Of a DNA stretch of 64,000 nt, positions 2,169-34,905 are shown one piece after another. The stretch spans positions 11,342 through 75,341 of the forward strand of contig JAAZXH010000004.1 of assembly GCA_014240275.1 (NCBI GenBank), written 5' to 3'. Under the pieces are notes generated by a model. It was not told the origin of the DNA, searched no databases, and was given only the letters and a program-made list of their open reading frames with translations. Source of the DNA: Candidatus Peregrinibacteria bacterium. Lineage in GTDB: Bacteria > Patescibacteriota > Gracilibacteria > UBA1369 > GCA-2718715. Position 1 is the stretch's first letter, and the number at the start of each line of letters is the position of its first letter. The translations under genes were made by a program, and so were the position numbers.

Positions 2169-2603
2169 TGGTGGAGATGCCGGGAGTCGAACCCGGGTCT
2201 TTAAGTGGAGATAGTAAACTTCTACCATGATAGTTTAATTTTTTAAAATTCGAATTCTTACTATAAAACTAAACAAAACATAAGAATTTATAGCTCTAAG
2301 TTTCAACCAAAGTGCGAGCGGGTTTTGGTCTATCCTCTAAATTGCCCTAAGTAAACTCGAGGAGCGCATACTTAAGGTCGAACCCACTATAGGGGTTCTA
2401 AGCTAAGTGTAAGAAAACTAAGCTGCAACAGCAGCTAATTTTTGACCAGCAAAAAGTTGTGCCGCTTTTGCGTAAGCGCTTAAGTTTCCTTCTTCAGTTT
2501 TAGCATTTGTGTTTGCATTGACGGATCTACCGGGGGACAATGCAACCCCGACATGGCCATTTAGTACCTCGAATCACTCAAATCGAGAACCAATTTCATC
2601 CCC
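2169..2603 (-). ncRNA. ssrA: tmRNA (transfer-messenger RNA)
   Basis: The minus strand starts GGGGATGAAATTGGTTCTCGA and ends GGGTTCGACTCCCGGCATCTCCACCA. The acceptor stem GGGGATG/CATCTCC includes the G3-U70 alanine identity pair. The T-arm is tRNA-like and CCA is encoded. An internal tag frame (2516->2418) begins GCA AAC and ends GCT GCT GTT GCA GCT TAG. Confidence 0.85.
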
Positions 2604-7491: not shown

Positions 7492-7560
7492 TAATTCAGG
7501 TGAAATTTGTATATCTATATTAGATTTATTTTAAGAAAATGCAAGCTATTTTTGTTTTGT

Positions 7561-8165
7561 TTAAGCTTTTTTATGTATTATTAAAGATATATATATAAAT
7601 ATAAAAACAAATTAGTAGTAGTAATAATAGTACTCTGGATTGTGGAAAAGTTTTGAGTATGAGTTTTGCTTTATTTTAAGCGGGTGTGTTTTTGTAATAA
7701 TTTGTATGATTGCACTTCTAGAAGCTGAAATCAAGGGTTGGTTGTGGAAAAGTTTGTTGGTTTTGGTGAGTGAGATTTGTCAAAAGCCTAAAGTTTTTAT
7801 ATTAGAAAAGCGAGAATTTATGGTGAGGGAGTTTTAAACATATATGTTGAAATTATGTGTAAAACCTGTGGATAAACTCTTGATTAATCATATGAATGTA
7901 GGTTTGTATAGTCAGTGGGGTGTTCAAAAGCTTATGGATTGTATTGCCTTTTTAAAAGCGGTTTTAACGAAAGAAAGCCAAAAAGATTTGCAGGGTTTTT
8001 GAACTACATATTAAGTATTGTTGTTGATAAAGTTTTGCACAAAGTTTTCGAAACTTGTGGATAAGTTTGTTTTGCACAAAGTTATGCACGGGTTTTTGCA
8101 CATTCTATACAAGCTTTATTTGGCTTTTTATAAACAAAAAAAAAGTTATGCACATAATATGCACA
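7561..8165. promoter_or_regulatory. candidate replication origin: AT-rich tract plus DnaA-box cluster
   Basis: Perfect TGTGGATAA boxes (complement of TTATCCACA) at 7867-7875 and 8056-8064. TGTGGAAAA at 7641-7649 and 7743-7751. TTTTGCACA at 8033-8041, 8070-8078 and 8094-8102. TTATGCACG at 8082-8090, TTATGCACA at 8146-8154 and ATATGCACA at 8157-8165. A nearly pure A/T stretch runs 7561-7635. The region is non-coding and lies directly upstream of dnaN. Confidence 0.55.
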
Positions 8166-8189
8166 ACTTATAAATAGTCTTGTTTACGA

Positions 8190-10056: not shown

Positions 10057-11412
10057 TTATTGGTTTTGTTTATACTCTTCCACAAGAGTTTTATAGCTTT
10101 CATAATCTTTGTTCGTTTCTTTCTTTGCAAAGTAAGGTCCATATTCGCAGGCGGGTGAAAACAAAATGTTACTTTGTTTGTGATTCTTACTTGCTTTAAT
10201 TATAGCTTTTTCAACCGCCATTGTCAAACTTGGTACAATGTCAACAAGCTTTGTTTGTGACAATTCTTTGGTGACCGGGCTTTGAATTCCAATTGGGTGA
10301 ATGTTTGGGTTTTGAAAAACTTCAATTAGTGGTTTTAGGTCTGCGTCTTTAGTGGCACCACCAAAAATTAAAAAAGTATCTTCGTTTTTGAGGTGTTTTA
10401 AAACCTGGAGTGTTGAGTCTACGCTGGTGCCCTGTCTGTCGTTGTAGAAATTAATGTTGTTAACTTTGTATAGAAATTCGAATCTATCTGGCAAGGGTGT
10501 TAGGTTGTGGAGGCTTTCCAAAATAGCTTCTTCAGAATAGTTAAGTTCTTTTAAAATTGTAAAAACTAAGCTGTAGTTAGCTTGTTCAAAGCTGCTTTTT
10601 TTTGGGAAATTTGTTTGGATAGGCAAAAGGGCCTTGTATTGAACCGTTCGGGCTTTACTGGCTGTATTGTTAAGTGTTTTAGGGAGGATGAATACGTCGG
10701 AGCTGGTTTGGTTTTGTGTGATTTTGAGTTTGGCCTGTTTGTAGTTTTCAAAACTGCCGTGTTCAGAAATGTGGTTGGAACTAATGTTTGTAATTGCTGC
10801 AATTTTAGGTTTGAAGTATTTAATGTATTTGAGTTGTCGGTTAGAAACTTCGAGAATTAAAACGTCATCGCTGCTTAAGTTTTCTTTTGAAAGGATGGGT
10901 TGGTTTTTTCTGTCATTTCCAGCGAGCAGAATTTGATTTTGGTTGAGCTTTTGTAGACTTTTTTGTAAATAATGTGTGATACTAGATTTTCCTGAGGAGC
11001 CGGTTATAGCTATGATTTGCCCTGGGAAAAAGTCTTGATAAAGCTCGATAATGTTGTATATCTTGCCTTTGTATTGATGTAGAACTTGGTTTTTTTCGTA
11101 CATATCCCAAGATTGTGGTGCAAAAATTAGGTCTGCCTCTGCGATGTTTGTTAGGTAGTCTTTTGCTAAAAATAATTTAGCATTGCAGTTTTCGAGTTTT
11201 TGGCTTCGAGATTGAATTTCTTCTTTTGGGAATGCAATGTTGGATTTGTGGATGTTTTTCGTGAAATTTTCTTTGGTACAAGCGTCGTGAAAGCTAAGTT
11301 TTTTACAGCCTAATTTTAGGCAATATAGAGCAAGAGAACTGCCTTCGAGGCCAGTTACCCCAACTATGTGGATGTTTTTGTCGCTTAAGTTTTGAAAAGG
11401 AGAGTTAGACAT
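10057..11412 (-). CDS. murD: UDP-N-acetylmuramoylalanine--D-glutamate ligase (Mur ligase family)
   Basis: 451 aa with a Rossmann-like N-terminus 'IHIVGVTGLEGSS', P-loop 'IAITGSSGKSS', 'LILEVSNRQL', 'ITNISSNHISEHGSFENYKQAK' and 'NDRQGTSVDST'. Confidence 0.75.
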   Translation of the reverse strand: MSNSPFQNLSDKNIHIVGVTGLEGSSLALYCLKLGCKKLSFHDACTKENFTKNIHKSNIAFPKEEIQSRSQKLENCNAKLFLAKDYLTNIAEADLIFAPQSWDMYEKNQVLHQYKGKIYNIIELYQDFFPGQIIAITGSSGKSSITHYLQKSLQKLNQNQILLAGNDRKNQPILSKENLSSDDVLILEVSNRQLKYIKYFKPKIAAITNISSNHISEHGSFENYKQAKLKITQNQTSSDVFILPKTLNNTASKARTVQYKALLPIQTNFPKKSSFEQANYSLVFTILKELNYSEEAILESLHNLTPLPDRFEFLYKVNNINFYNDRQGTSVDSTLQVLKHLKNEDTFLIFGGATKDADLKPLIEVFQNPNIHPIGIQSPVTKELSQTKLVDIVPSLTMAVEKAIIKASKNHKQSNILFSPACEYGPYFAKKETNKDYESYKTLVEEYKQNQ

Positions 11413-13000
11413 TCCGTAAGGTTTTTAGCTTTTTTAGATTGATGGCTCCAAGCATGTGCATGCTTATGAAATAGAAACAAGCTGCACTTGGAATAATTAA
11501 TAAAAGGTTTAGGTTTTGCATCCAGCTATATGTAATAGGTTGAAGGAGGTAAATGAACCCGCCCATTAGTATACTTGCAAAATAGGTTTTGCCAAGTGTT
11601 TTTAAGTTCAGTTGAATACCGGAGTGTTGTTTGTAGCAGTAAAAAGCCAACATAAAGACGCACAGCTCACAGAAGGCTGTGGTGGTACTGGCAGCTAAAA
11701 TGCCATATTTGGGTATGAAGATGAGGTTGAGCACAACATTAATTAGAAACCCAGTGAAGTTGATTTTTAGTAAGGTGGTATTTCTGTCGGTTGCTACTAG
11801 GCTAAAGGCAAAAATGGTATTTAAGAACGAAAAATATAATCCAATTAAAATTATTTTGAAGGCTATGTCAGATCCAGTTTGGTAAAAGTAGCTATTTGTT
11901 GGGCTTTGTTTAAAGCTTTGATTAATAGGGGTTTGGGCACATTGGATTTCCGCTTCGGCCTGTTGATGGTAAACAACTTGGCTGTTGTTGGTACAGTGGT
12001 ATCCGCTTAAAAATTGAGGGGAGCTAATGCTAAAAATAATTGGAAAGGCCAGTAAAACGCCTCCAATTAGGATAGGTGCCGCAAGACCATGGAGGACTTT
12101 AAAGATGTTTTGTAGGCTGGCGTTGAGTTTTTGGTATCCAGATTGGAAGTTCTTTGTCAGGGTTGGAAGAGCTGAGTTCATAAAAAATACTGAAATTACC
12201 GAAAGTATTTCCATGAGTTTTAGAGGTACGGCATAGATTCCAGCGGCGCTGTTGCCGCTAAAATATTGTAAAAGAATGATGTCTACTTTGAAATAAAAGG
12301 TCATTAAAATTAATGCTAGTCCATACGGTAAGGCGGTTTTCAATAAGTTTTTGGCGTATATATGGTCGAAATGAAAGCGAAAGGGAAGTTCTTTTTTGAT
12401 AATAAAAATTGTGCAAAGCAACATGACTAGATTGGCGCCAAGGGCGCTTAAAATTAGGAAGTTGAACCCGTGTTCGAGGTTGCTGGGTTTAAGAATTAAA
12501 ATAATAAATGCAATGAGTCCAATGTTTATAATTTTGCCTAATACTTGGGCAATCGTTGCGAGATGCATTTTAAGTCTATATTGTAGGAGGCTCGTTAAGG
12601 TTCCGTTTATTAAAACAAAAGCCGTGGCCAGGCTTACTAGGCTAATACTTTTGGCTACCAAGGTACCAGCGTATTTGGGGATGAGAGGGATTATAATGTT
12701 GGAGGAACCAAGTAAAAGGGTGATTAAAATGAGTCTTAAGGTTAGAATGTGGCTTAAAACAAAGCTTTCGGAGTTGTTGTTTTTGGACATTTCTTGCACA
12801 CCTATGGTATATAGGCCAAAGTCGGCTATAATTGCGAAGAACCCTATTAGCTCAAATACGGTTGTATATTGACCATAAACTTCTAGCGGCAGGTAGGAGG
12901 TAATAAGTTTAATTGAGATTAAACCAATGATGGCTTGGGCCAGTCGTCCGAAAATTTGCCAAAAGGTGTTGGTGAAAATTTTGAAAGAAAGTCGATTCAT
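11405..13000 (-). CDS. MOP-superfamily oligosaccharide/polysaccharide flippase (Wzx-like)
   Basis: 531 aa that is hydrophobic throughout, with many predicted TM segments. The N-terminus 'NTFWQIFGRLAQAIIGLISIKLITSYLPLEVYGQY' is typical of polysaccharide-biosynthesis flippases. It overlaps murD by 8 nt. Confidence 0.7.
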   Translation of the reverse strand: MNRLSFKIFTNTFWQIFGRLAQAIIGLISIKLITSYLPLEVYGQYTTVFELIGFFAIIADFGLYTIGVQEMSKNNNSESFVLSHILTLRLILITLLLGSSNIIIPLIPKYAGTLVAKSISLVSLATAFVLINGTLTSLLQYRLKMHLATIAQVLGKIINIGLIAFIILILKPSNLEHGFNFLILSALGANLVMLLCTIFIIKKELPFRFHFDHIYAKNLLKTALPYGLALILMTFYFKVDIILLQYFSGNSAAGIYAVPLKLMEILSVISVFFMNSALPTLTKNFQSGYQKLNASLQNIFKVLHGLAAPILIGGVLLAFPIIFSISSPQFLSGYHCTNNSQVVYHQQAEAEIQCAQTPINQSFKQSPTNSYFYQTGSDIAFKIILIGLYFSFLNTIFAFSLVATDRNTTLLKINFTGFLINVVLNLIFIPKYGILAASTTTAFCELCVFMLAFYCYKQHSGIQLNLKTLGKTYFASILMGGFIYLLQPITYSWMQNLNLLLIIPSAACFYFISMHMLGAINLKKLKTLRNV

Positions 13001-13314
13001 GCTATATTTTTATAGATTGATTATATTAGAAAATGGAAATTTTAACAAATTGGAATGCATGAGTTTAAAAAACGTTTAGATATTTTACAAGAATTGTTTG
13101 AAAACGCAGTTGAAACCACAAAAAAAGTTTCTAATTTAGACTCGGTGATTACACGTTTTAAAAAGTTAGCTGAAGAAATGTTAGGGGACCCGTTGCTCGA
13201 TGATAAGGATCACGAGGTTGTTGTTTCAAATTTGGAGGCAAAGTTTGATAAGTTACATACAGGCAAGTTCGACAAAAATAATGCAATCCTGTCAGTAATT
13301 TCTGGTATGGGAGG
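12925..13314. repeat. left copy of direct duplication (flippase 5' end + intergenic + decayed prfB 5' part)
   Basis: Aligns with 15428-15938. A 41-nt identical run (13061-13101 = 15556-15596) is flanked by substitutions. Relative to the right copy there are three deletions of 96, 18 and 15 nt. Confidence 0.85.
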
Positions 13315-15382
13315 TGGGCCTGCTTGTTCTATCGCCAATGGTGAAGTAGTAACAGATCTTGGCGTGAATCAAGCGAGAGGTGTTAGCGTGGAATCTTGGC
13401 CTCCTTCTCAAGTTAGCCTAAAACCTGAAAAAAGGGTGCTTTTTTTGACAAAGGATCTTGAGTTGATTCGCAAGCAACTTTATGAAGGTGTTAATCTTCG
13501 AATGGAAGATTTTACAGTTGATGACTTGTTGGATGACATTAATACCGATGTTATGACTCCTGCTTGGGTATGTTTTGATCATGACCCTGCAATATTGGCA
13601 GAGAATGCCTATGCTGGACTTCTGCATGAAGGTCGTCGTGTTTTTGAGTCTCGAGCATTGATGGACGGAGGATTCGAAGTAATTGTTAGCGGCCATCGAA
13701 AAGGAACTGGGAGCAGCAGAGAAACTGCGGCTCAATGTGAAAGATGGTCTGGCATTCGGATTGTGATTGCCGCATCTTTTGCACCTATCCATGAGAGGAA
13801 TAACATCAATCTCGGTCAGTTGATGGGTAATTATGAGGTTCTAGAGCGTCTACAGAACGGCGAAAGTATTGAATTAGATGAGTTTGTGGGAAAATACGAC
13901 CCGGTGACCAAACTAATTGTGGAAAATGTTGGGCTTTTTCCATTCGCTAAGAGAATGAAGGCTGGCGATATTGAGTTACCTGAAGTGGGTAGTGAGCCAG
14001 TTCCAATGACCATGGCTGAGAAGATGATTTCCAACAAATTGCTAGGTCAGAATGGTGTGCCCGGTTACGTTAAGCCGGGGGAGGCGGTACTGGCTCAAGT
14101 TGATGGAGGTTATTCTCATGAATTCACCACTGCTCAGGTACATAACTTTTTAGTTGCAGAATATGGTGAGGATTATTCGTTACCAAATCCACCAAAGTTT
14201 GCGGTGTTCGAAGATCATTTGTTGTATGCGACGGGGGTCGCAAGGTTCGTTCGTTTTGAGCAAAAGATCCAGATCTTACGTGATTTGCAAGTAGCTTTCC
14301 AGCTGCATACGGGAGTGAGGGATTATTCTGCAGTGAATGGGGTTAGCCCGGGAATATGTCATCAAGTTGCTCGAGAGGAATTTATTGATGTTGGTGATTT
14401 CATCCAAGCAACCGATAGTCACACCTGCATGGGTGGGGCAAGTAATGCTCTGACATACGGAGTTGGTTCAACTGAATACGCAAACTTGGTATATAACCAA
14501 TTCGCATTCGTGAAAGTCCCAGAGAGTATCCGCTTTGAATTTGTTGGAAGTTTAGATTCGGGTTGCACTGCAAAGGATGTAATTCTGCACATCCTTTGGA
14601 AATATGCAGCACAATCAGATACTCTCGACCGCTCGATGGAATTTGGTGGTCCTGGGTTGGCATCACTTTCTATGGATGAAAGAGCAACTCTTTGCAATAT
14701 GGCCACAGAGTGTTCGGCAAAGACTGGCATCTGTGAACCAGATGATTTGACTGTTGAATGGTTAATGGCAAGACGGGATGATTTGACTGAAAATGAGATT
14801 CGTTCGGCCTTTGTTCTTCCTGATGAGAATGCTGTTTACCACGGAGGTGTGCATGAAATTGACCTGTCTGCAATTAGACCGATGGTAGCACACCCTGGAG
14901 ACCCAGATGCTGGAGTCCCATCAGACCCTACAAACGGAGCATACATCGAGGATCTAGGAGATGTGATGATTGATATTGCATACGCTGGCTCATGTACTGC
15001 AGGTAAGGAAGATGACTTTGCATATTACGCAATGGTAACTCAAGCCGCTCTTGATGCTGGTTTGACAGTAGCGCCGCATGTAGACTGTTATATCCAATTT
15101 GGTTCTAAGGTTGTTAAGGATTTGTCGGTGCGAAATGGATGGAGTGAGTTGTTTGAGCGGGCTGGAGTCAAACTACTTGATCCGGGTTGTGGTGCCTGTA
15201 TTGGTGCTGGGCCTGGTGTTTCTGAACTAGAAAGTCAAGTCACGGTATCAGCGATAAACCGTAATTTTCAAGGCCGCTCTGGACCAGGAAAGTTGTACCT
15301 TGCAAGCCCTCTGACGGTAATGGCGAGCGCCTTCACGGGAAAGATTACGGCTTGGCGTCCAGATTTGTTTGAACAGAGTTAA
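13055..15382 (+). CDS. chimeric ORF: RF2 N-terminal remnant fused to a single-chain aconitase-superfamily hydro-lyase (LeuD-like swivel domain followed by LeuC-like domains)
   Basis: 775 aa. Residues 1-86 align to the PrfB encoded at 15550. The remainder carries LeuD-type motifs 'DINTDVMTPA', 'GTGSSRETAAQ' and 'ASFAPIHERNNINLGQL'. These are followed by LeuC-type motifs 'MTMAEKM', 'TDSHTCMGGA', 'GSCTAGKEDD', 'PGCGACIGAGPG' and 'NRNFQGRSG'. Composition is markedly GC-richer than the flanks. Confidence 0.85.
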   Translation: MHEFKKRLDILQELFENAVETTKKVSNLDSVITRFKKLAEEMLGDPLLDDKDHEVVVSNLEAKFDKLHTGKFDKNNAILSVISGMGGGPACSIANGEVVTDLGVNQARGVSVESWPPSQVSLKPEKRVLFLTKDLELIRKQLYEGVNLRMEDFTVDDLLDDINTDVMTPAWVCFDHDPAILAENAYAGLLHEGRRVFESRALMDGGFEVIVSGHRKGTGSSRETAAQCERWSGIRIVIAASFAPIHERNNINLGQLMGNYEVLERLQNGESIELDEFVGKYDPVTKLIVENVGLFPFAKRMKAGDIELPEVGSEPVPMTMAEKMISNKLLGQNGVPGYVKPGEAVLAQVDGGYSHEFTTAQVHNFLVAEYGEDYSLPNPPKFAVFEDHLLYATGVARFVRFEQKIQILRDLQVAFQLHTGVRDYSAVNGVSPGICHQVAREEFIDVGDFIQATDSHTCMGGASNALTYGVGSTEYANLVYNQFAFVKVPESIRFEFVGSLDSGCTAKDVILHILWKYAAQSDTLDRSMEFGGPGLASLSMDERATLCNMATECSAKTGICEPDDLTVEWLMARRDDLTENEIRSAFVLPDENAVYHGGVHEIDLSAIRPMVAHPGDPDAGVPSDPTNGAYIEDLGDVMIDIAYAGSCTAGKEDDFAYYAMVTQAALDAGLTVAPHVDCYIQFGSKVVKDLSVRNGWSELFERAGVKLLDPGCGACIGAGPGVSELESQVTVSAINRNFQGRSGPGKLYLASPLTVMASAFTGKITAWRPDLFEQS

Positions 15383-15427
15383 AGGCCCTGAACACATGAG
15401 CGAGAAACTAGAATTTATTTGTTAAGA
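13315..15427. other. compositionally foreign insert (probable horizontal acquisition)
   Basis: The 60 nt at 14041-14100 contain 36 G+C, against 15 G+C in the 60 nt at 15541-15600. The segment is bounded on both sides by the direct duplication. No integrase or transposase is present. Confidence 0.7.
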
Positions 15428-15495
15428 CAATGGGCTAGTTGTCTGAAAATTTGCCAAAAGGTGTTGGTGAAAACTTTGAAAGAAAGTCAATTCAT
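15428..15495 (-). pseudogene. dead 5' fragment of the flippase gene inside the right repeat copy
   Basis: The minus strand reads ATG AAT TGA, where the intact gene at 13000 has ATG AAT CGA. Homology then continues for about 20 codons and stops abruptly near 15428. Confidence 0.75.
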
Positions 15496-15938
15496 GCTAT
15501 ATTTTTATAGTTAGATTATATTAGATAATCGAAATTTTAATAAATTGGAATGCACGAGTTTAAAAAACGTTTAGATATTTTACAAGAATTGTTTGATAAG
15601 GCACTAGAAGTTGTAAATCTAGAGCAACTAAAACAGGAGAAATTAGAACTAGAAGAGGCTATGCAAGATCCTCATTTTTGGGATCAGGCCGAAAAGGCAG
15701 CTGAAATTACTAAAAAAGTTTCTAATTTAGATTCGGAGATTACGCATTTTGAAAAGTTAGCTGAAGAAATTAGTTTTGCTAAAGAAATGGTAGGGGAGCA
15801 GTTGCTCGATGACAAAGAGTTAGATGCTGCTGTTTCAAATTTGGAAGCAAAGTTTGATAAGTTACAAATCGCGACTTTTTTTACAGGAAAGTTCGACAAA
15901 AACAACGTAATTTTGACGGTAATTTGTGGTATGGGAGG
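15428..15938. repeat. right copy of direct duplication (flippase 5' fragment + intergenic + intact prfB 5' part)
   Basis: See the left copy. Homology ends at GGTATGGGAGG (13304-13314 = 15928-15938). Confidence 0.85.
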
Positions 15939-16632
15939 CAAGGATGCTCAGGATTTTACTAAGCTTATTACTCAAATGTACCAAAAATACTGTGAAAAAT
16001 CGGATTTTGATTGTCAGGTTTTGGATATTTCTTATGCTGAAGCTGGATTTAAGTCTGCGACTTTAAAGATCAGCGGACAATTCGCTTATGGTTGGTTGAA
16101 GTTTGAGCACGGGGTACACAGGTTGATTCGTTTGAGCCCTTTTAATACTGGTAATACCAGAGAAACATCTTTTGTAATGGTTGATGTGTTGCCAGAGGTT
16201 GATTTTGATGACAGTGTTAAGTTAGAAGAAAAAGATTTGCGAATTGATGCGTTTAAAAGCTCTGGCCCTGGAGGTCAGTCGGTTAACACGACAGATTCTG
16301 CTGTGCGGATTACGCATTTGCCAACATCGATTGTAGTTAGTTGTCAGAATGAACGTAGTCAGCACCAAAACAAAGAAAATGCAATGCGCCTTCTAACTGC
16401 GAAATTAGTTAAGCTGATGCATGACAAGCAAGCTCAAACCTTAGATGATTTGCGAGGTCATAAAAATGAAATTTCCTTTGGAAACCAAATTCGAACTTAT
16501 ACTATGCACCCTTATCAATTGGTAAAGGACCATAGAACAAATTTTGAATTTAAAAATATCGCGGCGGTATTGGAGGGTAATATAGATGAGTTTTTACGTG
16601 CTGAGGTTGAAAATTTAACAGAAATCAGGTAA
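15550..16632 (+). CDS. prfB: peptide chain release factor 2
   Basis: 360 aa with the RF2-specific 'SPF' tripeptide (RLSPFNTGNTRETSF) and the GGQ motif (SGPGGQSVNTTDSAVR). It is a single uninterrupted ORF with no programmed +1 frameshift site. Confidence 0.95.
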   Translation: MHEFKKRLDILQELFDKALEVVNLEQLKQEKLELEEAMQDPHFWDQAEKAAEITKKVSNLDSEITHFEKLAEEISFAKEMVGEQLLDDKELDAAVSNLEAKFDKLQIATFFTGKFDKNNVILTVICGMGGKDAQDFTKLITQMYQKYCEKSDFDCQVLDISYAEAGFKSATLKISGQFAYGWLKFEHGVHRLIRLSPFNTGNTRETSFVMVDVLPEVDFDDSVKLEEKDLRIDAFKSSGPGGQSVNTTDSAVRITHLPTSIVVSCQNERSQHQNKENAMRLLTAKLVKLMHDKQAQTLDDLRGHKNEISFGNQIRTYTMHPYQLVKDHRTNFEFKNIAAVLEGNIDEFLRAEVENLTEIR

Positions 16633-16656
16633 AATTAAAGGATATTAAATATTATT

Positions 16657-21654: not shown

Positions 21655-23439
21655 TTAATTGGAAATGTGTTTTCTATATTTTCGTGTTATATGGCAGCGT
21701 GGTATTAAAAGGTGTTTTCCCGCCTTGATGTTTTTAGAACTGTTTGCAATCGCTTTCGCATATTTTTCTGCGATGTCTCGAGGCCAGTGTTTTGGGTTTT
21801 TAACAACCTGATCATACTGTTGATCGTTGATTTTATTGACATTGAAGATTACCAGCTCTTTGTCTCGGTATGCTTGTTTAAAACTGCTATTTGTTATATT
21901 AATAGTTTTGCCAATTTTTTGTTTGTATTTTAAACATGTGTTGAGCTCAGGTGTTACCTTGACTTTCATACGCCGTGGTTTGGTAAACGGTAAAGATTTT
22001 TGAACGACTTTTTCAAGTTGTGATAGATTTTCCTTTTGTGATGGTTTTTTGACTTCTTCGAAGAGTTTTTTAATGCTAGGTTTCTTTTTTGGAGTTTTTT
22101 TATAGTCGAAGAGTTCTTCTTTCGTGATTTTCTTTTTTGTGGGTTTTTCTTTGGCTTCTTGAGCATGTTCTTCTTTGATTTTTTCTTTAAGTTTGTTGGT
22201 TTTTTGTTTAGTTGTTGTTTTAATTTTTGATATTTCTGTAAGTTTTGATTGAGTATTGTTTTTAGATTCTTTGATTTTATTCTGTATTAGTATTAGTTCA
22301 TTTTTTAAGTTATCTATTAGTTTTTGTCTGGAATTTTTGGATAAGTTAGAATCATTATTTTTTAGAGTGTTGATGTTTTTTTGAACTTGTTCTGCTTTTT
22401 CTTGAAGTTTTGTTAGTTTATTTGATCTTAAGGCTGGTTTATTTGATCTTAAGGCTGTTTGATAGGCTAGAGTTGTTAAGGTGTATTTCACTGCGTTACT
22501 CGATATTATGTTTTTTTTGCGGAGCATTGTTAGTAAGTCAATTAGTGGGTTGGTAGAGTTTTTTAAGCTATTTTGTGATTTAATTAATTCTGCTGCTGAT
22601 TTTTTTGCGATAGAGGCACCAGATTTATAACCAATTAATAAGATGCACTTACGAAGTAGTTTACCTTGTTTAGTTTGGTCTGAAACCGGCGATGTTTGGA
22701 AGTGCTTACGACAGCTGTCTATGATTCTTTGAAGTTGGAGTGATGCGAGTACTGGAATGTGCTCTGGGTTGGTGGGATTGAGTGTCCTCATTTTTTTGAG
22801 TTCTTTTGCGCGATTTTTTTTGGTTAGTTCACAGCTTTCTGAACCATTGATGATAGTAAAGTATCTGTTTCCATATGTGGTTAGAACTTTTTGACGTCCT
22901 TCTTTTGCAATTAAATGATAGAGGTTGTATTGTCTGTTTTCTTTCTGATCTTCACTAAGAGTTATGTTTTTTAGGTCTCGCATGAAAGATTGTCGAAATT
23001 GAAAGGGCCCACTTTCTTTTCTGTCTTTTAAAGTCTTTTTAGATAAGCCTTTGATGTTAAAGGTTCCATAAGTGCTTTCTAATGGGCAAATTCCGTTAAC
23101 AAAGAGATTACTAATCTCTTGTAATTCTTGGTCAGAACAATATTTTTTGGCTTCTGACAGTTTGAAGTAGTGCAAGAGAGTTTTTTCTAAGTTGGGGTTT
23201 TCTTTTAAGAACCGTTGTTTTAATTTTGCCATTTTTTTAAGGTTGCCTGCGGTATTGATGCTTGCAACCGTGGTGTCGTAAATTTTAACGCTTTGGTTTG
23301 CTATTAATAGTTTAGCAATTGTTTTTTTGTGTTTTGGAAAATCTACTCCTGGTTTTATTCCGTTTGATGGTGTTTGACTAAGTTTATATAAAAACTTGCT
23401 TGTTTTAGCTTCTAGAAACTCTTTGAACCTAATTAACAT
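21655..23439 (-). CDS. hypothetical Lys-rich, probably coiled-coil protein
   Basis: 594-aa ORF that is very Lys/Asn/Gln-rich, especially residues ~330-470. I see no obvious TM segment or known motif. It sits upstream of ftsA, separated by a 242-nt spacer with a hairpin. Confidence 0.6.
   Translation of the reverse strand: MLIRFKEFLEAKTSKFLYKLSQTPSNGIKPGVDFPKHKKTIAKLLIANQSVKIYDTTVASINTAGNLKKMAKLKQRFLKENPNLEKTLLHYFKLSEAKKYCSDQELQEISNLFVNGICPLESTYGTFNIKGLSKKTLKDRKESGPFQFRQSFMRDLKNITLSEDQKENRQYNLYHLIAKEGRQKVLTTYGNRYFTIINGSESCELTKKNRAKELKKMRTLNPTNPEHIPVLASLQLQRIIDSCRKHFQTSPVSDQTKQGKLLRKCILLIGYKSGASIAKKSAAELIKSQNSLKNSTNPLIDLLTMLRKKNIISSNAVKYTLTTLAYQTALRSNKPALRSNKLTKLQEKAEQVQKNINTLKNNDSNLSKNSRQKLIDNLKNELILIQNKIKESKNNTQSKLTEISKIKTTTKQKTNKLKEKIKEEHAQEAKEKPTKKKITKEELFDYKKTPKKKPSIKKLFEEVKKPSQKENLSQLEKVVQKSLPFTKPRRMKVKVTPELNTCLKYKQKIGKTINITNSSFKQAYRDKELVIFNVNKINDQQYDQVVKNPKHWPRDIAEKYAKAIANSSKNIKAGKHLLIPRCHITRKYRKHISN
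22416..22457. repeat. perfect 21-bp tandem duplication inside the 594-aa ORF
   Basis: GTTTATTTGATCTTAAGGCTG occurs twice back to back and encodes ALRSNKP-ALRSNK. Confidence 0.9.
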
Positions 23440-28039: not shown

Positions 28040-28990
28040 TTATAAATTATGATTTCTTTGTTCTAGCCAATAGTGTAATTCTGAAGATCTGACTCTTTTC
28101 ATCCATAATATAATTAACGTTTCAGGGTTTGTTTCGAAAGCTTTTTCTAAAAATTCTTCATCTGTTTTAAGTGATCTGGATATATATGAAATAAATTCAG
28201 GATGGTCTTGAAGCAGGTTGAGAATAAACTCTTTATCAGATTTAATTTCTCTCGTTGTGTTACTAAATATCAAGTAGTGAGTGGCGTAAGTTAAGATTAA
28301 TTCTTTATTACCCCTTATATTTCTTGAAAAATAACCAAAAATTTTTGCTGTACTAGTAATTTTATCTGATCGTTCTAATGCGGCTTTTGCTATATCTAGA
28401 TCATCTTTTAAATCATCTGACGCAAAATAAACTGCTAATGGAAAAGTTTTGATTGCTTCTAAAACGATATCTTTATTATTTTGTAATTCATCTGATGCCC
28501 ATTGTAAAGCACCTCCATTTTCTTGTACCGCTTGAAAGACTGTATTGTAATCGTTTTTTGATTCTTCAGTTGGAAAAAAATGTCTTTCTGGAGTATTAAT
28601 ATAGCAATTAAGGTTTTTCAGTTTTACTAAAGCTAGAGTATCATCTCCCCAAATCTCTTCCCGTATATGTCTTATGCTTAATTGGCTTGCTAAAGCTAGT
28701 AATAGACCTGGGATTTTTGCATGAGCTAATTGAACGAAATCTGGATCTTGTCTCAGTTCTTTAGAAGTTTTCTTAACGTTTTTCGCTAATTCATCAGTGT
28801 TTTGACTAAGTTCTGATATGACTTGGTTGTATTCTGACTCTTTTCCCGAATTTGCTATTGTTTGCTCTGATGCTGCAGATGTTAATTCACGCCTTTCAGA
28901 TATTTGTTGTGATGGCTTTTGGCTTGTTGATGTTTCAGCTTGATTGACTTGATTAATATTTCTATCAGCTGGGGTTTTAACGTTTGACAT
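28040..28990 (-). CDS. DUF4116 repeat-containing protein
   Basis: 316 aa with repeated 'A(L/V)..(n)g.aL.(w/f)AS(D/E)(E/D)L(q/k)(n/d)(n/d)k(d/e)i(v/a)l.A(i/l)' units. Examples are 'ALQWASDELQNNKDIVLEAI' and 'AVYFASDDLKDDLDIAKAAL'. Confidence 0.55.
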   Translation of the reverse strand: MSNVKTPADRNINQVNQAETSTSQKPSQQISERRELTSAASEQTIANSGKESEYNQVISELSQNTDELAKNVKKTSKELRQDPDFVQLAHAKIPGLLLALASQLSIRHIREEIWGDDTLALVKLKNLNCYINTPERHFFPTEESKNDYNTVFQAVQENGGALQWASDELQNNKDIVLEAIKTFPLAVYFASDDLKDDLDIAKAALERSDKITSTAKIFGYFSRNIRGNKELILTYATHYLIFSNTTREIKSDKEFILNLLQDHPEFISYISRSLKTDEEFLEKAFETNPETLIILWMKRVRSSELHYWLEQRNHNL

Positions 28991-30006: not shown

Positions 30007-31107
30007 ATGTATATGAAAAAAATAATAAGTCTAATAGTTATGTTTGCTTTGGTTGGGTGTTCTACTCCAGCAGAAGAAATTGTAGCTGATGATATTTCAG
30101 TGAAAGTTGGAGTTATAACTCCAATGTCTGGTGGACTTGCTGGGTATGGTGAAGAGACACAACTAATTTTAGCTGAAACTATTAAAAGAAATTTTGGAGA
30201 AGGAAGTGGAATTGAACTAGTTTATGAAGATAGTAAGTGTACTGGTCAAGATGCTGTGACGGCTTATCAAAAGCTTGTTAATGTAGACCAGGTTGATGTG
30301 ATACTGGGTGGTTTATGTTCTTCAGAAAGTTTAGCTTTTGCTCCCTTACTGGAAGCAGATGGTATGGTGGCAATTTCTAACGTGAGTACTAGTCCAAAAC
30401 TTGAAGGTTTGAGCTCTAACTTTTTTACTTTATCTTTTAGTGATATAGAACTGGCTAAGTTGATTTCTGCTGAGGCAGATTTCAGTGATAAAATTGCTAT
30501 TATTACAGAACAAAATAACTGGAATATCGGAATTTTAAAGGTTTTGGAACAGGAGTTGGGTGATAAGATTGTTAGTAACGAAATTTTTGAAAACGGCGCT
30601 AATGATATGCGGAATATCATTGCTAAAACTTTAAAGGCTGATCCTGAGGTTATAGTACTTAATCCAAATGCTGGCCCGACTAGTACTACTTTAATTACTC
30701 AGTTGGCTGAATCAAAAGATCAGCTTGAAGGTATTGCCTTGGTTTCTCAAATGATGTCTTATTTAACAGATAGCGTAATTGAGCAGGCTCCGGGTGTTGC
30801 TGACACCGTTCGCGTAATTGATACTGCTACTGTTCAAACTGATGAGTTTAAAGATTTTAAAACTAGTGTAGGTGAAATTGTTTTTTATACCGACTATTTG
30901 GTTGCGAGTACGCATGATGCATTGTTGAATTTAGTAAATGTATACCGAAGTGCAATTCAAAATGATACTGATATGGCTGAAGAGTTAAGAAATGCTAAAT
31001 TGCAAGGTTATATAGCAGAAGGTAAATCCTTTGGTGATTCATCTTTTATTAAGGGAATTAAGTATAGTACTTTTGTATTAGAAGACGGTCAAATTATCGA
31101 ACGGTAA
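30007..31107 (+). CDS. ABC transporter substrate-binding lipoprotein (LivJ/K-like, HAAT family), paralog 1
   Basis: 366 aa with the lipobox 'ALVGCS', 'VKVGVITPMSGGLAGYGEE' and 'ELVYEDSKCTGQDAVTAYQKLVNVDQVDVILGGLCSSES'. Confidence 0.85.
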   Translation: MYMKKIISLIVMFALVGCSTPAEEIVADDISVKVGVITPMSGGLAGYGEETQLILAETIKRNFGEGSGIELVYEDSKCTGQDAVTAYQKLVNVDQVDVILGGLCSSESLAFAPLLEADGMVAISNVSTSPKLEGLSSNFFTLSFSDIELAKLISAEADFSDKIAIITEQNNWNIGILKVLEQELGDKIVSNEIFENGANDMRNIIAKTLKADPEVIVLNPNAGPTSTTLITQLAESKDQLEGIALVSQMMSYLTDSVIEQAPGVADTVRVIDTATVQTDEFKDFKTSVGEIVFYTDYLVASTHDALLNLVNVYRSAIQNDTDMAEELRNAKLQGYIAEGKSFGDSSFIKGIKYSTFVLEDGQIIER

Positions 31108-31124
31108 TAATTTTATAAAAGTTT

Positions 31125-31153
31125 AAAGAGCCTCATTATATGGGGCTCTTTTT
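31125..31153 (+). terminator. rho-independent terminator
   Basis: AGAGCC-TC-attatat-GG-GGCTCT followed by TTTTT. The element is identical to the one at 32334-32364. Confidence 0.65.
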
Positions 31154-31221
31154 AAATCAATCATATATGCTTAATCTTTGGGGCTTTTACAATATAATAT
31201 GTATGTTTTTAACTTTATTTT

Positions 31222-32316
31222 ATGAAGAAATTTTTTGCAGCTTTTGTGCTTTTGAGTTTAGTTGGATGTTCTTCTCCAGCTGAGACGGTTGATATGGAGA
31301 ATATTCCAGTAAAAGTTGGGGTTGTAACACCTATGTCTGGTGGTTTTGCAGCTTGGGGAGAGGAAACACAATCTATTTTAAATCAAACTATTTTAAATAA
31401 CTTTGGGACAGAATCAAATATTGAGCTAGTGTATGAAGATAGTAAGTGTAATGGTCAAGATGCAGTGTTGGCTTATCAAAAACTTGTAAACGTTGATCAG
31501 GTTGATGTGATTTTGGGAGGCTTATGTTCGTCTGAAAGTTTAGCCATTGCACCTTTATTGGAAGCTGATGGTATGGTTGCTATGTCTGGTGTTAGTGCTA
31601 ATATGAAGCTTGATGGATTGAGTCCAAATTTCATGACACTTTCTTATATTAGTAGTGCTATGGCTAAAAATATGGCTGAGGAAGTTATGGACTATGAAAA
31701 AGTTGCGATCATTACTGAAGAAAATGATTGGAATATTGGTATGCTTGAAGTTATTGAGCAAGAGCTTGGAGAAAAAATTGTGAGTAACGAAGTGTTTGAA
31801 AAAGGCTCAAAAGATATCCGGAATACTATTTTGAAAGCCTTAAAAAGTGAACCAGATGTGTTACTTTTGAACCCTAATTCTGGTCCTACTAGTGGTACTT
31901 TATTTAAACAATTGGCAGAAGTTAAGGATCAGCTTGAGGATATCGATTTGGTTTCTCAACTACTAGTATATTTAAAGGAAGATATGCGAACAATGGCACC
32001 TGAGCTTTCTAGCAAAATAAAAATAGTAGAAGCAGCGCTTTTAGATGATCCAGAATTTCAAAACTTTAAGGCGAGTGCCGGTGATATTGTGAACTATACT
32101 GAGTTTTTAACTGCTAATACGCACAATGCTTTATTAAACCTAGTTTTGGCTCATAGACGGTCAGTTGCAAATGAGACAGATGTTTTGTCTGAACTAAGAA
32201 ATAATCCGTTGCAAGGTTTTGTGACTTCTGGTTCTCAATTTAACGACGATACTTTCTTGGGTGGTGTTGAATTTAGTACTTTTGTATTAGAAGATGGTCA
32301 AATTATCGAACGGTAA
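31222..32316 (+). CDS. ABC transporter substrate-binding lipoprotein, paralog 2
   Basis: 364 aa with the lipobox 'SLVGCS' and the same conserved blocks as paralog 1. Confidence 0.85.
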   Translation: MKKFFAAFVLLSLVGCSSPAETVDMENIPVKVGVVTPMSGGFAAWGEETQSILNQTILNNFGTESNIELVYEDSKCNGQDAVLAYQKLVNVDQVDVILGGLCSSESLAIAPLLEADGMVAMSGVSANMKLDGLSPNFMTLSYISSAMAKNMAEEVMDYEKVAIITEENDWNIGMLEVIEQELGEKIVSNEVFEKGSKDIRNTILKALKSEPDVLLLNPNSGPTSGTLFKQLAEVKDQLEDIDLVSQLLVYLKEDMRTMAPELSSKIKIVEAALLDDPEFQNFKASAGDIVNYTEFLTANTHNALLNLVLAHRRSVANETDVLSELRNNPLQGFVTSGSQFNDDTFLGGVEFSTFVLEDGQIIER

Positions 32317-32333
32317 TAATTTTATAAAAGTTT

Positions 32334-32364
32334 AAAGAGCCTCATTATATGGGGCTCTTTTTTT
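32334..32364 (+). terminator. rho-independent terminator (between convergent genes)
   Basis: Same hairpin as at 31125-31153, followed by TTTTTTT. Confidence 0.65.
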
Positions 32365-32388
32365 GTGTGCGTTATGGTTGTTTGAAAA

Positions 32389-33138: not shown

Positions 33139-33148
33139 AAATTTGGGG

Positions 33149-34006: not shown

Positions 34007-34011
34007 AGTTT

Positions 34012-34896: not shown

Positions 34897-34905
34897 AGGT
34901 TTTGA

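What the first reader, a model, noticed from the sequence alone, without database searches (positions are those of the whole stretch)
12925..15938. GC-rich aconitase-superfamily gene integrated between a flippase gene and prfB, bracketed by a diverged direct duplication of the target locus
Seen: 12925-13314 and 15428-15938 are direct repeats. Each carries the first ~20 codons of the minus-strand flippase gene, the ~54-nt intergenic region and the 5' part of prfB. The left copy is continuous with the intact flippase gene (11405-13000). The right copy is continuous with intact prfB (15550-16632). Between them lie ~2.1 kb of different composition (36 G+C in the 60 nt at 14041-14100 versus 15 in 15541-15600) encoding an aconitase-family enzyme. 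The copies are not identical. A 41-nt identical run (13061-13101 = 15556-15596) is flanked by scattered substitutions and indels. The right copy's flippase fragment starts abruptly and is dead (ATG AAT TGA). Inference: the topology A-[H]-insert-[H']-B is what a Campbell-type single crossover of a circular element carrying a homeologous copy of this locus would produce. No integrase, transposase or terminal inverted repeats are visible, so homologous recombination is the most economical mechanism. The identical run is a plausible crossover zone.
Basis: partly seen in the sequence, partly recalled or inferred. Interest (0 to 1): 0.85.

Follow-up and report, generated by a model that had tools for sequence, protein, structure and literature searches.

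The report
Archaeal aconitase gene captured by prfB promoter
A tiny marine bacterium of the Peregrinibacteria group has taken a single enzyme gene from Marine Group II archaea and switched it on by wedging it, in frame, behind a duplicated copy of the promoter and first codons of its own release-factor gene, and the scars of that event are still readable.

Summary
12936-13314 and 15431-15938 are direct repeats, 88% identical over 379 alignable nt. They bracket a 2,086-nt segment (13318-15403) plus about 30 nt of filler.

- The insert is 91-93% identical in protein, and 84% in DNA without gaps, to the aconitase-family gene of Marine Group II archaea (Poseidoniales). There it sits between the TFB and topoisomerase VI genes.
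- The transferred piece lacks the TATA-like element seen upstream in the archaeal contigs.
- It is fused in frame to the left copy's prfB start, giving one 775-aa ORF.

The host is a Peregrinibacteria-like CPR bacterium with almost no Shine-Dalgarno sites. Three relatives have the flippase gene directly beside prfB. A second public assembly carries the right junction.

The redundant halves have decayed. The flippase fragment has a nonsense codon. The prfB leader lost RF2-conserved residues and 129 nt through three in-frame deletions. The aconitase part has no indels and dN/dS of about 0.05.

Best reading: one illegitimate duplication-insertion gave promoter and leader capture, and the copies then diverged in place. 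The 41-nt identical run is not statistically special. The case is a well-preserved new member of a known kind.

The parts
11405..13000 (-). Intact native flippase gene (Polysacc_synt / Wzx-MurJ-like, 531 aa). Its first 22 codons lie inside the left repeat copy.
   Evidence: ORF. Pfam PF01943 at 3e-22. Orthologues sit next to prfB in L004, L005 and L050.
12936..13314 (.). Left copy of the duplicated target: flippase codons 1-22, the 54-nt divergent promoter region, and a prfB 5' fragment reduced to 87 codons.
   Evidence: Alignment and repeat families D1-D4. Block statistics.
12981..13008 (+). Promoter-like site TTGAAA-16-(TG)TATATT upstream of the fusion ORF. It duplicates the prfB promoter-like site.
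   Evidence: Consensus scan, 10 of 12 matches plus an extended -10. The same site occurs at 15476-15503. This is a consensus match only and is not shown to be active.
13055..15382 (+). Single 775-aa ORF: prfB-derived leader, linker from the former archaeal 5' region, aconitase swivel domain, aconitase catalytic domain.
   Evidence: ORF. Pfam Aconitase_C at residues 209-256 and Aconitase at 349-762. NCBIfam LeuD-like at 160-276 and LeuC/HacA-like at 318-766. Only this frame is open across 13055-13400.
13055..13314 (+). prfB-derived leader. Codons 1-15 are identical in protein to prfB. The rest is diverged, with in-frame deletions of 96, 18 and 15 nt after 13099, 13174 and 13258.
   Evidence: dN 0.099, dS 0.39 against the right copy. 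Conserved RF2 residues are lost relative to L004 and L050.
13315..13317 (+). Left junction. TGG lies between the last prfB-homologous base and the first base homologous to the Marine Group II (MGII) gene.
   Evidence: Three-way register comparison. Any microhomology is short at best (GGTATG / GCAAG-like) and cannot be fixed without the true donor.
13318..15403 (+). Segment of Marine Group II archaeal origin (2,086 nt): 70 nt of the former 5' region, the aconitase-family ORF, and about 20 nt past the stop codon.
   Evidence: Ungapped blastn at 84% identity to L001 1071-3148 and L002 4883-6959. 91-93% aa identity to MGII/Poseidoniales proteins. Nested in the MGII clade.
13318..13387 (+). Former archaeal upstream or N-terminal region, now read through as a linker. 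The GTG at 13388 aligns with the ATG of the 664-aa MGII proteins and is preceded by GAGAGGTG.
   Evidence: The TATA-like TTATTTAAA of L001 (1020-1030) lies outside the transferred piece.
15404..15430 (.). Filler of unknown origin at the right junction. MGII similarity fades between 15396 and 15403.
   Evidence: No match in the window or in any fetched locus other than L003.
15431..15938 (.). Right copy of the duplicated target: dead flippase fragment, intergenic region, and prfB codons 1-130, continuous with the rest of prfB.
15431..15495 (-). Dead flippase 5' fragment (M N stop ...). Changes are R3stop, I8V, G18R, R19Q and one synonymous change.
   Evidence: R19 is conserved in L004, L005 and L050.
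15476..15503 (+). Promoter-like site of the intact prfB. Its hexamers are identical to those of the left copy.
15550..16632 (+). Intact prfB (RF2, 360 aa, one uninterrupted ORF).
   Evidence: TIGR00020 at 416 bits, above its cutoff. PCRF and RF-1 domains. 99% identical copy in L049 and an identical copy in L003.

Best explanation
A promoterless, gene-sized piece of Marine Group II (Poseidoniales) archaeal DNA carries an aconitase-superfamily enzyme in which a LeuD-like swivel domain is fused ahead of a LeuC/HacA-like Fe-S catalytic domain. This piece was joined into the chromosome of a marine Peregrinibacteria-like CPR bacterium by one illegitimate duplication-insertion event.

One end was joined at prfB codon 130. 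The other end, through about 30 nt of filler, was joined 0.5 kb upstream at flippase codon 22. That 0.5-kb target therefore lies on both sides of the insert.

The right copy keeps the essential prfB whole, with its promoter. The left copy keeps the flippase gene whole. It also places the prfB promoter, the leader that lacks a Shine-Dalgarno site, the start codon and the first codons in frame ahead of the archaeal ORF. That supplies bacterial transcription and translation signals (promoter and leader capture).

Afterwards the copies diverged in place. The two redundant halves decayed. The leader was shortened by three in-frame deletions. The enzyme part stayed under purifying selection.

Shown here: the archaeal origin, the anatomy, the in-frame fusion, the ancestral synteny, the direction of decay, and the constraint on the enzyme.

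Inferred, not shown: that the event was a single step, that the promoter and the fusion are actually used, and which substrate the enzyme acts on.
For: Origin:
- All 120 best protein hits are 80-93% identical. Every hit that carries a name is MGII, Poseidoniales or Thalassarchaeum.
- The archaeal contigs L001 and L002 show TFIIB | aconitase | topoisomerase VI B/A.
- DNA aligns without gaps at 84% over 13318-15403.
- The window protein nests inside the MGII clade in a neighbour-joining tree.

Host:
- The window carries dnaN, mfd, ftsZ, ftsA, murJ, def and tmRNA.
- The prfB relatives that carry names are Peregrinibacteria or Peribacteria.

The insert is derived: L004, L005 and L050-52 have the flippase gene 54-110 nt from prfB, with a full-length prfB N-terminus.

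The insert is real:
- An independently assembled contig, L003, covers 14280-16653 with one mismatch and includes the right junction.
- The protein matches no sampled MGII sequence above 92.6% identity. It has 7 private changes at 436 near-invariant columns, against a mean of 0.85 in controls.
- It shows about a two-fold rate increase over its nearest relatives.

Capture of expression signals:
- The TATA-like element of the donor lies outside the transferred piece.
- Identical promoter-like hexamers occur in both copies.
- Only 1 of 47 host genes has a GGAG/GAGG core upstream of its start.
- The junction is in frame, and only that frame is open.
- All three leader deletions are multiples of three, which has a chance of 1/27.

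Selection on the enzyme:
- dN/dS is 0.05-0.06.
- There are no indels in 2,064 nt, against 3 deletions in the 389-nt leader.
- The Fe-S cysteine ligands and the GSSRE and NRNFxGR motifs are invariant.
- The SUF Fe-S assembly genes lie in the same window.

Laboratory precedent: promoter capture by microhomology-mediated duplication or deletion has been shown in E. coli (PMC6614815).
Against: - No reads were available. The left junction is seen only in this window. Neither the 5.8-billion-protein search nor the JGI metagenome scan found a second instance.
- Divergence along the repeat is uneven: 11/164 differences left of 13100 against 33/215 to the right (Fisher p = 0.01). dS in the prfB fragment (0.39) is several times the roughly 8% divergence of the dead flippase fragment and the intergenic region. 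Simple clock-like divergence in place therefore needs an extra assumption, either constraint on both promoter regions or later gene conversion.
- dN/dS of the leader is 0.26-0.29, below the roughly 0.5 expected if the left copy were fully neutral. The confidence interval is wide.
- L003 carries a TCA>TAA nonsense change at 14664, so the enzyme may be dispensable in some cells.
- No partner TCA-cycle enzyme is present in the window.
- Promoter use, translation of the fusion and enzyme activity are untested.
Confidence: 0.7

Rival explanations
1. A small circular molecule carried the aconitase gene plus a homeologous copy of the flippase-prfB junction from another strain or species. It integrated by one homologous crossover (Campbell type), so most of the divergence between the repeats existed before integration.
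For: - The topology fits exactly.
- The copies differ by 12% while two sampled strains differ by 0.8%.
- dS in the prfB fragment is high (0.39) and dN/dS is below 0.5.
- No recombinase genes are present.
- Insertion-duplication by circular donors is known from pneumococcal transformation (my own knowledge).
Against: - Such a circle still needs two illegitimate joins between host-like and archaeal DNA, plus a homologous crossover and a second donor species.
- About 10 amino-acid differences against 1-2 are derived on the redundant left copy and hit RF2-conserved residues. The deletions remove the FWD and IATFF motifs, which are present in all relatives.
- Differences in the flippase fragment are 4 non-synonymous or nonsense to 1 synonymous, the reverse of what two working alleles would show.
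- A Campbell product should be evenly diverged along the repeat. It is not.
- The proposed crossover run is not significant (P = 0.13).
Confidence: 0.12
2. A two-step history. Either an unstable spontaneous tandem duplication of the 0.5-kb segment existed first and the archaeal DNA later landed in it, or the gene first sat silent nearby and a later duplication or deletion brought the prfB promoter to it.
For: - Spontaneous tandem duplications are common. Silent transferred genes are activated this way in E. coli (PMC6614815).
- The uneven divergence could reflect two events of different age.
Against: - The insert lies exactly at the novel joint of the duplication. Homology to the left copy stops at 13314, and homology to the right copy starts at 15431, with only filler between. 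A later random insertion would leave repeat sequence on both sides of the insert.
- The aconitase gene is present as a single copy. The duplication events in that study added extra copies of the transferred gene.
- A first insertion into single-copy prfB would presumably be lethal, given that RF2 is normally essential (my own knowledge), and one into the flippase gene would have disrupted it.
Confidence: 0.08
3. Assembly or binning artefact: reads from abundant Marine Group II archaea were wrongly joined into a CPR contig.
For: - The source appears to be a marine metagenome in which MGII are abundant.
- No reads could be checked.
- The left junction has no second witness.
Against: - A separately assembled contig has the same right junction.
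- Neither junction shares a k-mer of assembler size between the archaeal and host sequence.
- The left repeat copy is a diverged, internally deleted version that no mis-join of the native locus could create.
- The reading frame runs across the junction.
- The gene is at most 92.6% identical to any sampled MGII protein and carries excess private substitutions.
Confidence: 0.03
4. The gene is native to this bacterial lineage, or the transfer went from bacterium to archaeon.
For: GC3 of the gene lies within the host range.
Against: - Three relatives lack the gene at this site.
- No other close bacterial homologue was found among the 120 best hits.
- In MGII the gene sits in conserved archaeal synteny in two contigs that differ by dS 0.56.
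- The window sequence nests within MGII diversity.
Confidence: 0.01

Closest known systems
Promoter capture of a horizontally transferred gene by microhomology-mediated deletion or tandem duplication (Li & Bock 2019, Nucleic Acids Res, PMC6614815; follow-up PMC11111574)
   Same: A foreign gene with no usable promoter becomes expressed because an illegitimate rearrangement places a host promoter, often with the 5' part of a host gene, directly upstream. Duplication keeps the host gene intact. No recombinase is involved.
   Different: - That work is a laboratory selection in E. coli with an engineered eukaryotic cassette.
- This case is natural, archaeon to CPR bacterium, and old (the repeats are 12% diverged).
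- The foreign gene is single-copy and sits at the duplication joint itself.
- It is an in-frame translational fusion whose leader was later trimmed.
- Microhomology at the joints cannot be established here.
Campbell-type insertion-duplication (integration of a suicide plasmid or circular donor by a single crossover)
   Same: The product has the same topology: the insert is flanked by direct repeats of the target segment, with each flanking gene intact on one side only.
   Different: - No circular vector, origin or marker is present, and the insert is a single gene.
- The repeat ends coincide with illegitimate joints to archaeal DNA.
- The pattern of differences points to decay after the event rather than two pre-existing alleles.
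Homology-facilitated illegitimate recombination and double illegitimate recombination during natural transformation (Acinetobacter and Streptococcus work; my own knowledge, with SPDIR mentioned in bioRxiv 10.1101/2023.11.22.568220)
   Same: Foreign DNA with no overall homology is integrated through short or absent homology at the joints, sometimes with filler.
   Different: Those events usually replace or delete recipient DNA. They do not duplicate 0.5 kb of it. No homologous anchor is visible in the archaeal segment.
Marine Group II / Poseidoniales fused aconitase-family protein (P0015 'aconitate hydratase', MGII MED-G37; P0086, Ca. Thalassarchaeum)
   Same: 91-93% aa identity over residues 89-775. 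The domain order is the same (swivel, then catalytic), and all Fe-S ligand and active-site motifs are kept.
   Different: - The window protein has an extra 111-residue N-terminus made of an RF2 fragment plus a read-through linker.
- The native ATG is now GTG.
- There are 7 private changes at near-invariant positions.
- The gene sits in a bacterial chromosome.

Membership tests
Aconitase superfamily (aconitase / IPM isomerase / homoaconitase) | Catalytic domains 1-3 (PF00330) plus a swivel domain (PF00694) | tested here: met
   PF00330 at 3e-84 (residues 349-762) and PF00694 at 5e-12. The closest solved structures are the M. jannaschii HacA and IPMI large subunits (1e-49), then mitochondrial aconitase (1e-34).
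Aconitase superfamily (aconitase / IPM isomerase / homoaconitase) | Three cysteine ligands of the 4Fe-4S cluster and the conserved DSHT, GSSRE and NRNFxGR motifs | tested here: met
   C647, C712, C715, D454-S455-H456-T457, G219-S220-S221-R222-E223 and N735-R736-N737...G740-R741 are invariant in the 22-sequence alignment that includes the window protein. Their assignment as ligands rests on my knowledge of the family.
Any named aconitase subfamily (AcnA, AcnB, LeuC/LeuD, HacA/HacB, TIGR01342) | Score above the curated NCBIfam cutoff of that subfamily | tested here: not met
   The best hit, NF001614, scores 275 bits against a cutoff of 385. All 25 hits are below their cutoffs. The substrate is therefore not assigned.
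Inter-domain horizontal transfer from Marine Group II archaea | The sequence nests within the donor clade, and the donor shows vertical synteny | tested here: met
   Neighbour-joining tree. TFIIB-aconitase-TopoVI context in L001 and L002.
Inter-domain horizontal transfer from Marine Group II archaea | Absent at the orthologous site in relatives of the recipient | tested here: met
   L004, L005 and L050-52 have flippase directly beside prfB. The closest relatives are only 70% identical in prfB.
Inter-domain horizontal transfer from Marine Group II archaea | Both junctions physically real (spanning reads) | tested here: inconclusive
   The right junction is seen in an independent contig, L003. 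The left junction is seen only in the window. No reads were available.
Promoter capture by illegitimate duplication | The foreign gene arrives without its own promoter, and a host promoter lies directly upstream | tested here: met
   The donor's TATA-like element lies outside the transferred segment. A duplicated promoter-like site lies at 12981-13008. Activity was not measured.
Promoter capture by illegitimate duplication | Microhomology at the breakpoints | tested here: inconclusive
   Three unassigned nucleotides on the left and about 30 nt of filler on the right. The nearest donor is 16% diverged, so microhomology cannot be read.
Promoter capture by illegitimate duplication | Transcription and translation of the captured gene from the host signals | not testable with these tools
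   Only indirect evidence: the in-frame junction, three in-frame deletions and a host that lacks Shine-Dalgarno sites.
   This feature is not exclusive to the model.
   The polarity and type of the changes indicate decay of the redundant halves. Divergence is uneven (p = 0.01) and the identical run is not significant (P = 0.13).
Mobile element (IS, transposon, integron cassette, integrative element, prophage) | A recombinase gene, terminal inverted repeats, a short target duplication, or a tRNA/att site | tested here: not met
   The insert holds one gene and no recombinase. There are no inverted repeats at its ends. The duplication is 0.5 kb. The nearest tRNA is 12 kb away. No viral relative was found.

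The most novel reading that the evidence does not exclude
The transfer marks a physical association. On this reading, the marine Peregrinibacteria-like CPR bacterium lives attached to, or feeds on, Marine Group II archaea and takes up their DNA. The locus would then record how a bacterium that lacks Shine-Dalgarno sites domesticates an archaeal gene, by fusing it to the leader of an essential gene. Nothing here excludes this reading. Only the high identity to MGII genes and the published co-occurrence of the two groups in marine water columns (PMC5596340) speak for it.
Probability: 0.2. Interest if true: 0.8.

Novelty: new member of a known kind. Interest (0 to 1): 0.55.

Why it matters
Hosts of marine CPR bacteria are essentially unknown. 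A recent, single-gene transfer from Marine Group II archaea gives a concrete, testable candidate partner.

The locus is also a rare natural record of how a gene from another domain of life becomes expressible. The duplicated 0.5-kb target keeps an essential gene intact while lending its promoter, leader and start codon to the newcomer. Later in-frame trimming shows selection acting on the fusion. This matches what laboratory selections in E. coli predicted (promoter capture by illegitimate duplication), but here in an uncultured, genome-reduced bacterium.

It would also add an Fe-S hydro-lyase to a lineage described as purely fermentative, which bears on metabolic reconstructions of marine Peregrinibacteria.

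Tried and rejected
- Structure prediction of the 775-aa fusion from 22 close homologues gave mean pLDDT 45.8. It was unusable, so no fold search was run.
- A search for a second instance of the left junction found nothing. The protein search with the first 145 residues returned only partial MGII hits. Exact 26-mer and 31-mer scans of JGI metagenomes returned 0 hits.
- The exact fusion protein and the exact flippase protein are not on record.
- A viral vector was tested and not found: no relative in IMG/VR.
- The filler (15396-15430) and the divergent last 74 nt of L003 match nothing in the window or the fetched loci.
- Amelioration was tested. GC3 is 0.363 against 0.37-0.39 in MGII orthologues. 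Third-position changes from G/C to A/T against A/T to G/C are 116:96 and 108:101, which I judge not significant.
- GC alone as a marker of foreignness is weakened, because ftsZ has similar GC and the insert's GC3 is within the host range. Tetranucleotide distance does separate the insert.
- The 41-nt identical run as a crossover zone is rejected as not significant.
- L049 (99.2% identical strain) starts 49 nt upstream of prfB, so it cannot show whether that strain carries the insert.
- The BioSample identifiers were not found in the literature library, so no sampling site is claimed.
- Internal translation start at GTG 13388 behind GAGAGGTG was considered. It is unlikely in a host where 1 of 47 genes has such a motif, but it is not excluded.


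Full report
**1. Observation**

The region was read directly, aligned and scanned for repeats. 12936-13314 and 15431-15938 are direct repeats. A 179-nt block is 92% identical and three further blocks are 84-88% identical. These blocks are separated by gaps of 96, 18 and 15 nt in the left copy. Over the 379 alignable positions there are 44 differences.

Each copy holds three elements:
- the first 22 codons of the minus-strand flippase gene;
- a 54-nt intergenic region;
- the 5' part of prfB.

The left copy runs into the intact 531-aa flippase gene at 11405-13000. The right copy runs into the intact 360-aa prfB at 15550-16632.

**2. What lies between the repeats**

It is not. One ORF, 13055-15382 (775 aa), begins at the left copy's prfB start codon and runs through:
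- 87 prfB-derived codons;
- three junction nucleotides;
- about 23 codons of former archaeal upstream sequence;
- an Aconitase_C (swivel) domain followed by an Aconitase catalytic domain.

Only this frame is open.

A search of 5.8 billion proteins gave 120 best hits that are all 80-93% identical over residues 89-775. Every hit that carries a name is Marine Group II euryarchaeote, Poseidoniales or Ca. Thalassarchaeum.

Two of the encoding contigs (L001, L002) show the gene between a divergent TFIIB gene and the topoisomerase VI B and A genes, so the context is archaeal.

At the DNA level the window aligns to both contigs without a single gap, at 84% identity, from 13318 to 15395-15403.

In a neighbour-joining tree the window protein nests inside the MGII sequences. 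It is sister to a group that includes MGII MED-G37, and it has one of the longest terminal branches.

**3. The recipient**

The rest of the window is an ordinary bacterial chromosome. It carries dnaN, mfd, RNase J, a Mur ligase, def, FemAB, ftsZ, ftsA, topA, murJ, pheT, a SUF Fe-S assembly operon, a Liv-type ABC transporter and tmRNA.

The prfB product is 69-70% identical to that of a Ca. Peribacteria MAG and about 50% identical to many Peregrinibacteria.

In three relatives the flippase gene lies directly beside prfB, with no insert and a full-length prfB N-terminus:
- L004, at 69% identity;
- L050-52, at 70%;
- L005, at 53%.

**4. Is it an artefact?**

Reads were not available, but four points argue against a chimera.

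- A contig from a different public assembly (L003, 2,448 nt) matches 14280-16653 with one mismatch. It contains the end of the aconitase gene, the filler, the dead flippase fragment and prfB.
- Neither junction has an assembler-sized shared word between host and archaeal sequence.
- The left repeat copy is a diverged, internally deleted version of the locus. No mis-join of native reads could make it.
- The gene is not an ordinary MGII sequence. Its best identity is 92.6%. It has 7 private substitutions at 436 columns that are at least 98% invariant among 120 homologues, against a mean of 0.85 and a median of 0 in leave-one-out controls. It evolves about twice as fast as its nearest relatives.

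The left junction has no second witness.

**5. Anatomy of the joints**

On the left, prfB homology ends at 13314 (GGTATGGGAGG). Three bases (TGG) follow, and MGII homology starts at 13318.

In the donor contigs a TATA-like TTATTTAAA lies about 45 nt upstream of that point. The transferred piece therefore lacks that element.

On the right, MGII homology fades 14-22 nt after the stop codon. About 30 nt of filler with no detectable source follow, and the right repeat copy begins at 15431.

The transferred piece is thus almost exactly one gene (2,086 nt).

Nothing marks the site as a mobile element. There is no recombinase gene, inverted terminal repeat or nearby tRNA, and no relative in viral contigs.

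**6. How it most likely works**

Both repeat copies keep an identical promoter-like site, TTGAAA-16-(TG)TATATT, at 12981-13008 and 15476-15503. No terminator-like site lies between them.

The host almost never uses a Shine-Dalgarno sequence. Only 1 of 47 genes has a GGAG/GAGG core upstream of its start. The native archaeal start region does carry one (GAGAGGTG, then GTG at 13388).

I infer that the archaeal gene could be neither transcribed nor efficiently translated on its own. It is expressed because it is fused to the duplicated prfB promoter, AT-rich leader and start codon.

Three observations support selection on this fusion:
- the junction is in frame;
- the read-through linker has no stop codon;
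- all three deletions that shortened the leader (96, 18 and 15 nt) are multiples of three. Two of them lie between short direct repeats, 8 of 9 nt and 7 of 7 nt.

The enzyme part is clearly constrained:
- dN/dS is 0.05-0.06 against the MGII orthologues;
- there are no indels in 2,064 nt, while the 389-nt leader lost three segments;
- all Fe-S ligands and active-site motifs are invariant.

The SUF genes needed to mature such an enzyme are in the window.

The substrate is not assigned. Every NCBIfam subfamily score is below its cutoff, and the nearest solved structures are the archaeal homoaconitase and IPM isomerase large subunits.

**7.

The layout A-[H]-insert-[H']-B is produced equally by two routes:
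- a Campbell crossover of a circle carrying H plus the gene;
- one illegitimate event that duplicates H and places the foreign DNA at the novel joint, such as an unequal sister-chromosome join bridged by the fragment, or a replicative template switch.

Sequence alone cannot separate these. What can be tested is whether the divergence between H and H' existed beforehand (a homeologous donor) or arose in place.

*Evidence for divergence in place*
- In the prfB fragment, where outgroups allow polarisation, about 10 amino-acid differences are derived on the left, redundant copy, against 1-2 on the right. They include the Q of DKLQ and the T and C of LTVICG, which are conserved in all relatives. 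The deletions remove the FWD and IATFF motifs.
- In the dead flippase fragment, 4 of 5 differences are non-synonymous or nonsense, and they hit the conserved R19.

These are the marks of decay after duplication, not of a second working allele.

*The identical run*

The 41-nt run, proposed as the crossover zone, is not longer than expected (permutation P = 0.13).

*Two points that do not fit simple clock-like decay*
- Divergence is uneven: 6.7% left of 13100 against 15% to the right (p = 0.01).
- dS in the prfB fragment is 0.39 and dN/dS is 0.26-0.29.

Constraint on both promoter regions, or later gene conversion of the left part, would explain this. A partly homeologous origin cannot be excluded.

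*Further hints*

Four of the 9 differences between L049 and the window fall in the first 53 nt of L049 (49 nt of intergenic region plus the first prfB codons). Two of them equal the left-copy state, which hints at exchange between copies.

The repeats are far more diverged (12%) than the two sampled strains (0.8%). The event is therefore old relative to the species, and the insert has survived possible loop-out between the repeats. This is further indirect evidence that it is useful.

**8. Comparison with what is known**

The closest described process is promoter capture of a silent transferred gene by microhomology-mediated deletion or tandem duplication. It was shown by selection in E. coli (Li & Bock 2019, PMC6614815).

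This case shares the logic and the absence of any recombinase. It differs in several ways:
- it is natural and inter-domain;
- the foreign gene is single-copy and sits at the duplication joint;
- it is a translational fusion that was later trimmed.

It is not a member of any mobile-element class; the defining features were tested and not met.

Marine Peregrinibacteria have been reported alongside MGII in the water column and described as fermentative, without respiration (PMC5596340). I found no report of an MGII-CPR association or of this transfer.

**9. Verdict**

The gene is foreign and is bracketed by a target duplication with no recombinase involved. The Campbell crossover with a homeologous donor and the crossover zone are not supported.
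- The finding is a well-preserved natural example of inter-domain gene acquisition with promoter and leader capture, so a new member of a known kind.
- Its main wider value is as a lead to the unknown host or partner of marine Peregrinibacteria.

Noticed in passing
window 14664 (L003 position 385): The independent contig L003 differs from the window by a single base, C>A, which turns TCA into TAA inside the aconitase domain (about codon 537). It is either a sequencing error or a population variant in which the captured gene is already broken.
   Followed up: partly
L003 2375-2448, against window 16654 onward: The last 74 nt of L003 diverge completely from the window just after the prfB stop codon and match nothing in the window. 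This could be a structural variant downstream of prfB or an artefact at the contig end.
   Followed up: partly
window 7492-8189: An AT-rich (GC 0.28) 700-nt gap upstream of dnaN holds 6 of the window's 27 DnaA-box-like sites, including both perfect TTATCCACA matches. It is a candidate replication origin, although GC skew does not change sign there and no dnaA gene is adjacent.
   Followed up: partly
whole window (47 gene starts): Only 1 of 47 genes has a GGAG/GAGG core within 20 nt upstream of its start. The upstream regions are AT-rich and often contain TTTAA or TAA. This organism apparently initiates translation without Shine-Dalgarno pairing.
   Followed up: partly
window 15550-16632: prfB is a single uninterrupted ORF with no in-frame UGA or +1 frameshift site. 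The same holds in the relatives L004 and L005.
   Followed up: no
L049 1-53, against window 15501-15553 and 13006-13058: Differences between the 99.2%-identical strain L049 and the window cluster at the 5' end: 4 of 9 lie in the first 53 nt. Two equal the left-copy state, and one gives Tyr at prfB codon 2, as in L004. This is possible gene conversion between the repeat copies.
   Followed up: partly
window 2169-2603 (-): A tmRNA gene (Rfam 114 bits) with the predicted tag peptide AKTEEGNLSAYAKAAQLFAGQKLAAVAA, which is unusually long.
   Followed up: no
window 30007-36015: A Liv-type ABC transporter cluster with three paralogous Peripla_BP_6 binding proteins (30007-31107, 31222-32316, 34906-36015), two permeases and an ATPase.
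   Followed up: no
window 44678-47542 (-), 61538-63937 (+), 21655-23439 (-): Three large ORFs (954, 799 and 594 aa) have no Pfam match. A 316-aa protein at 28040-28990 consists of DUF4116 repeats.
   Followed up: no
L002 4920-4950: In the closest MGII contig, the position of the usual start codon of the 664-aa aconitase reads ATA, and the upstream frame contains a stop. The true start of the archaeal gene is therefore uncertain (645, 664 or 692 aa in different gene calls).
   Followed up: no
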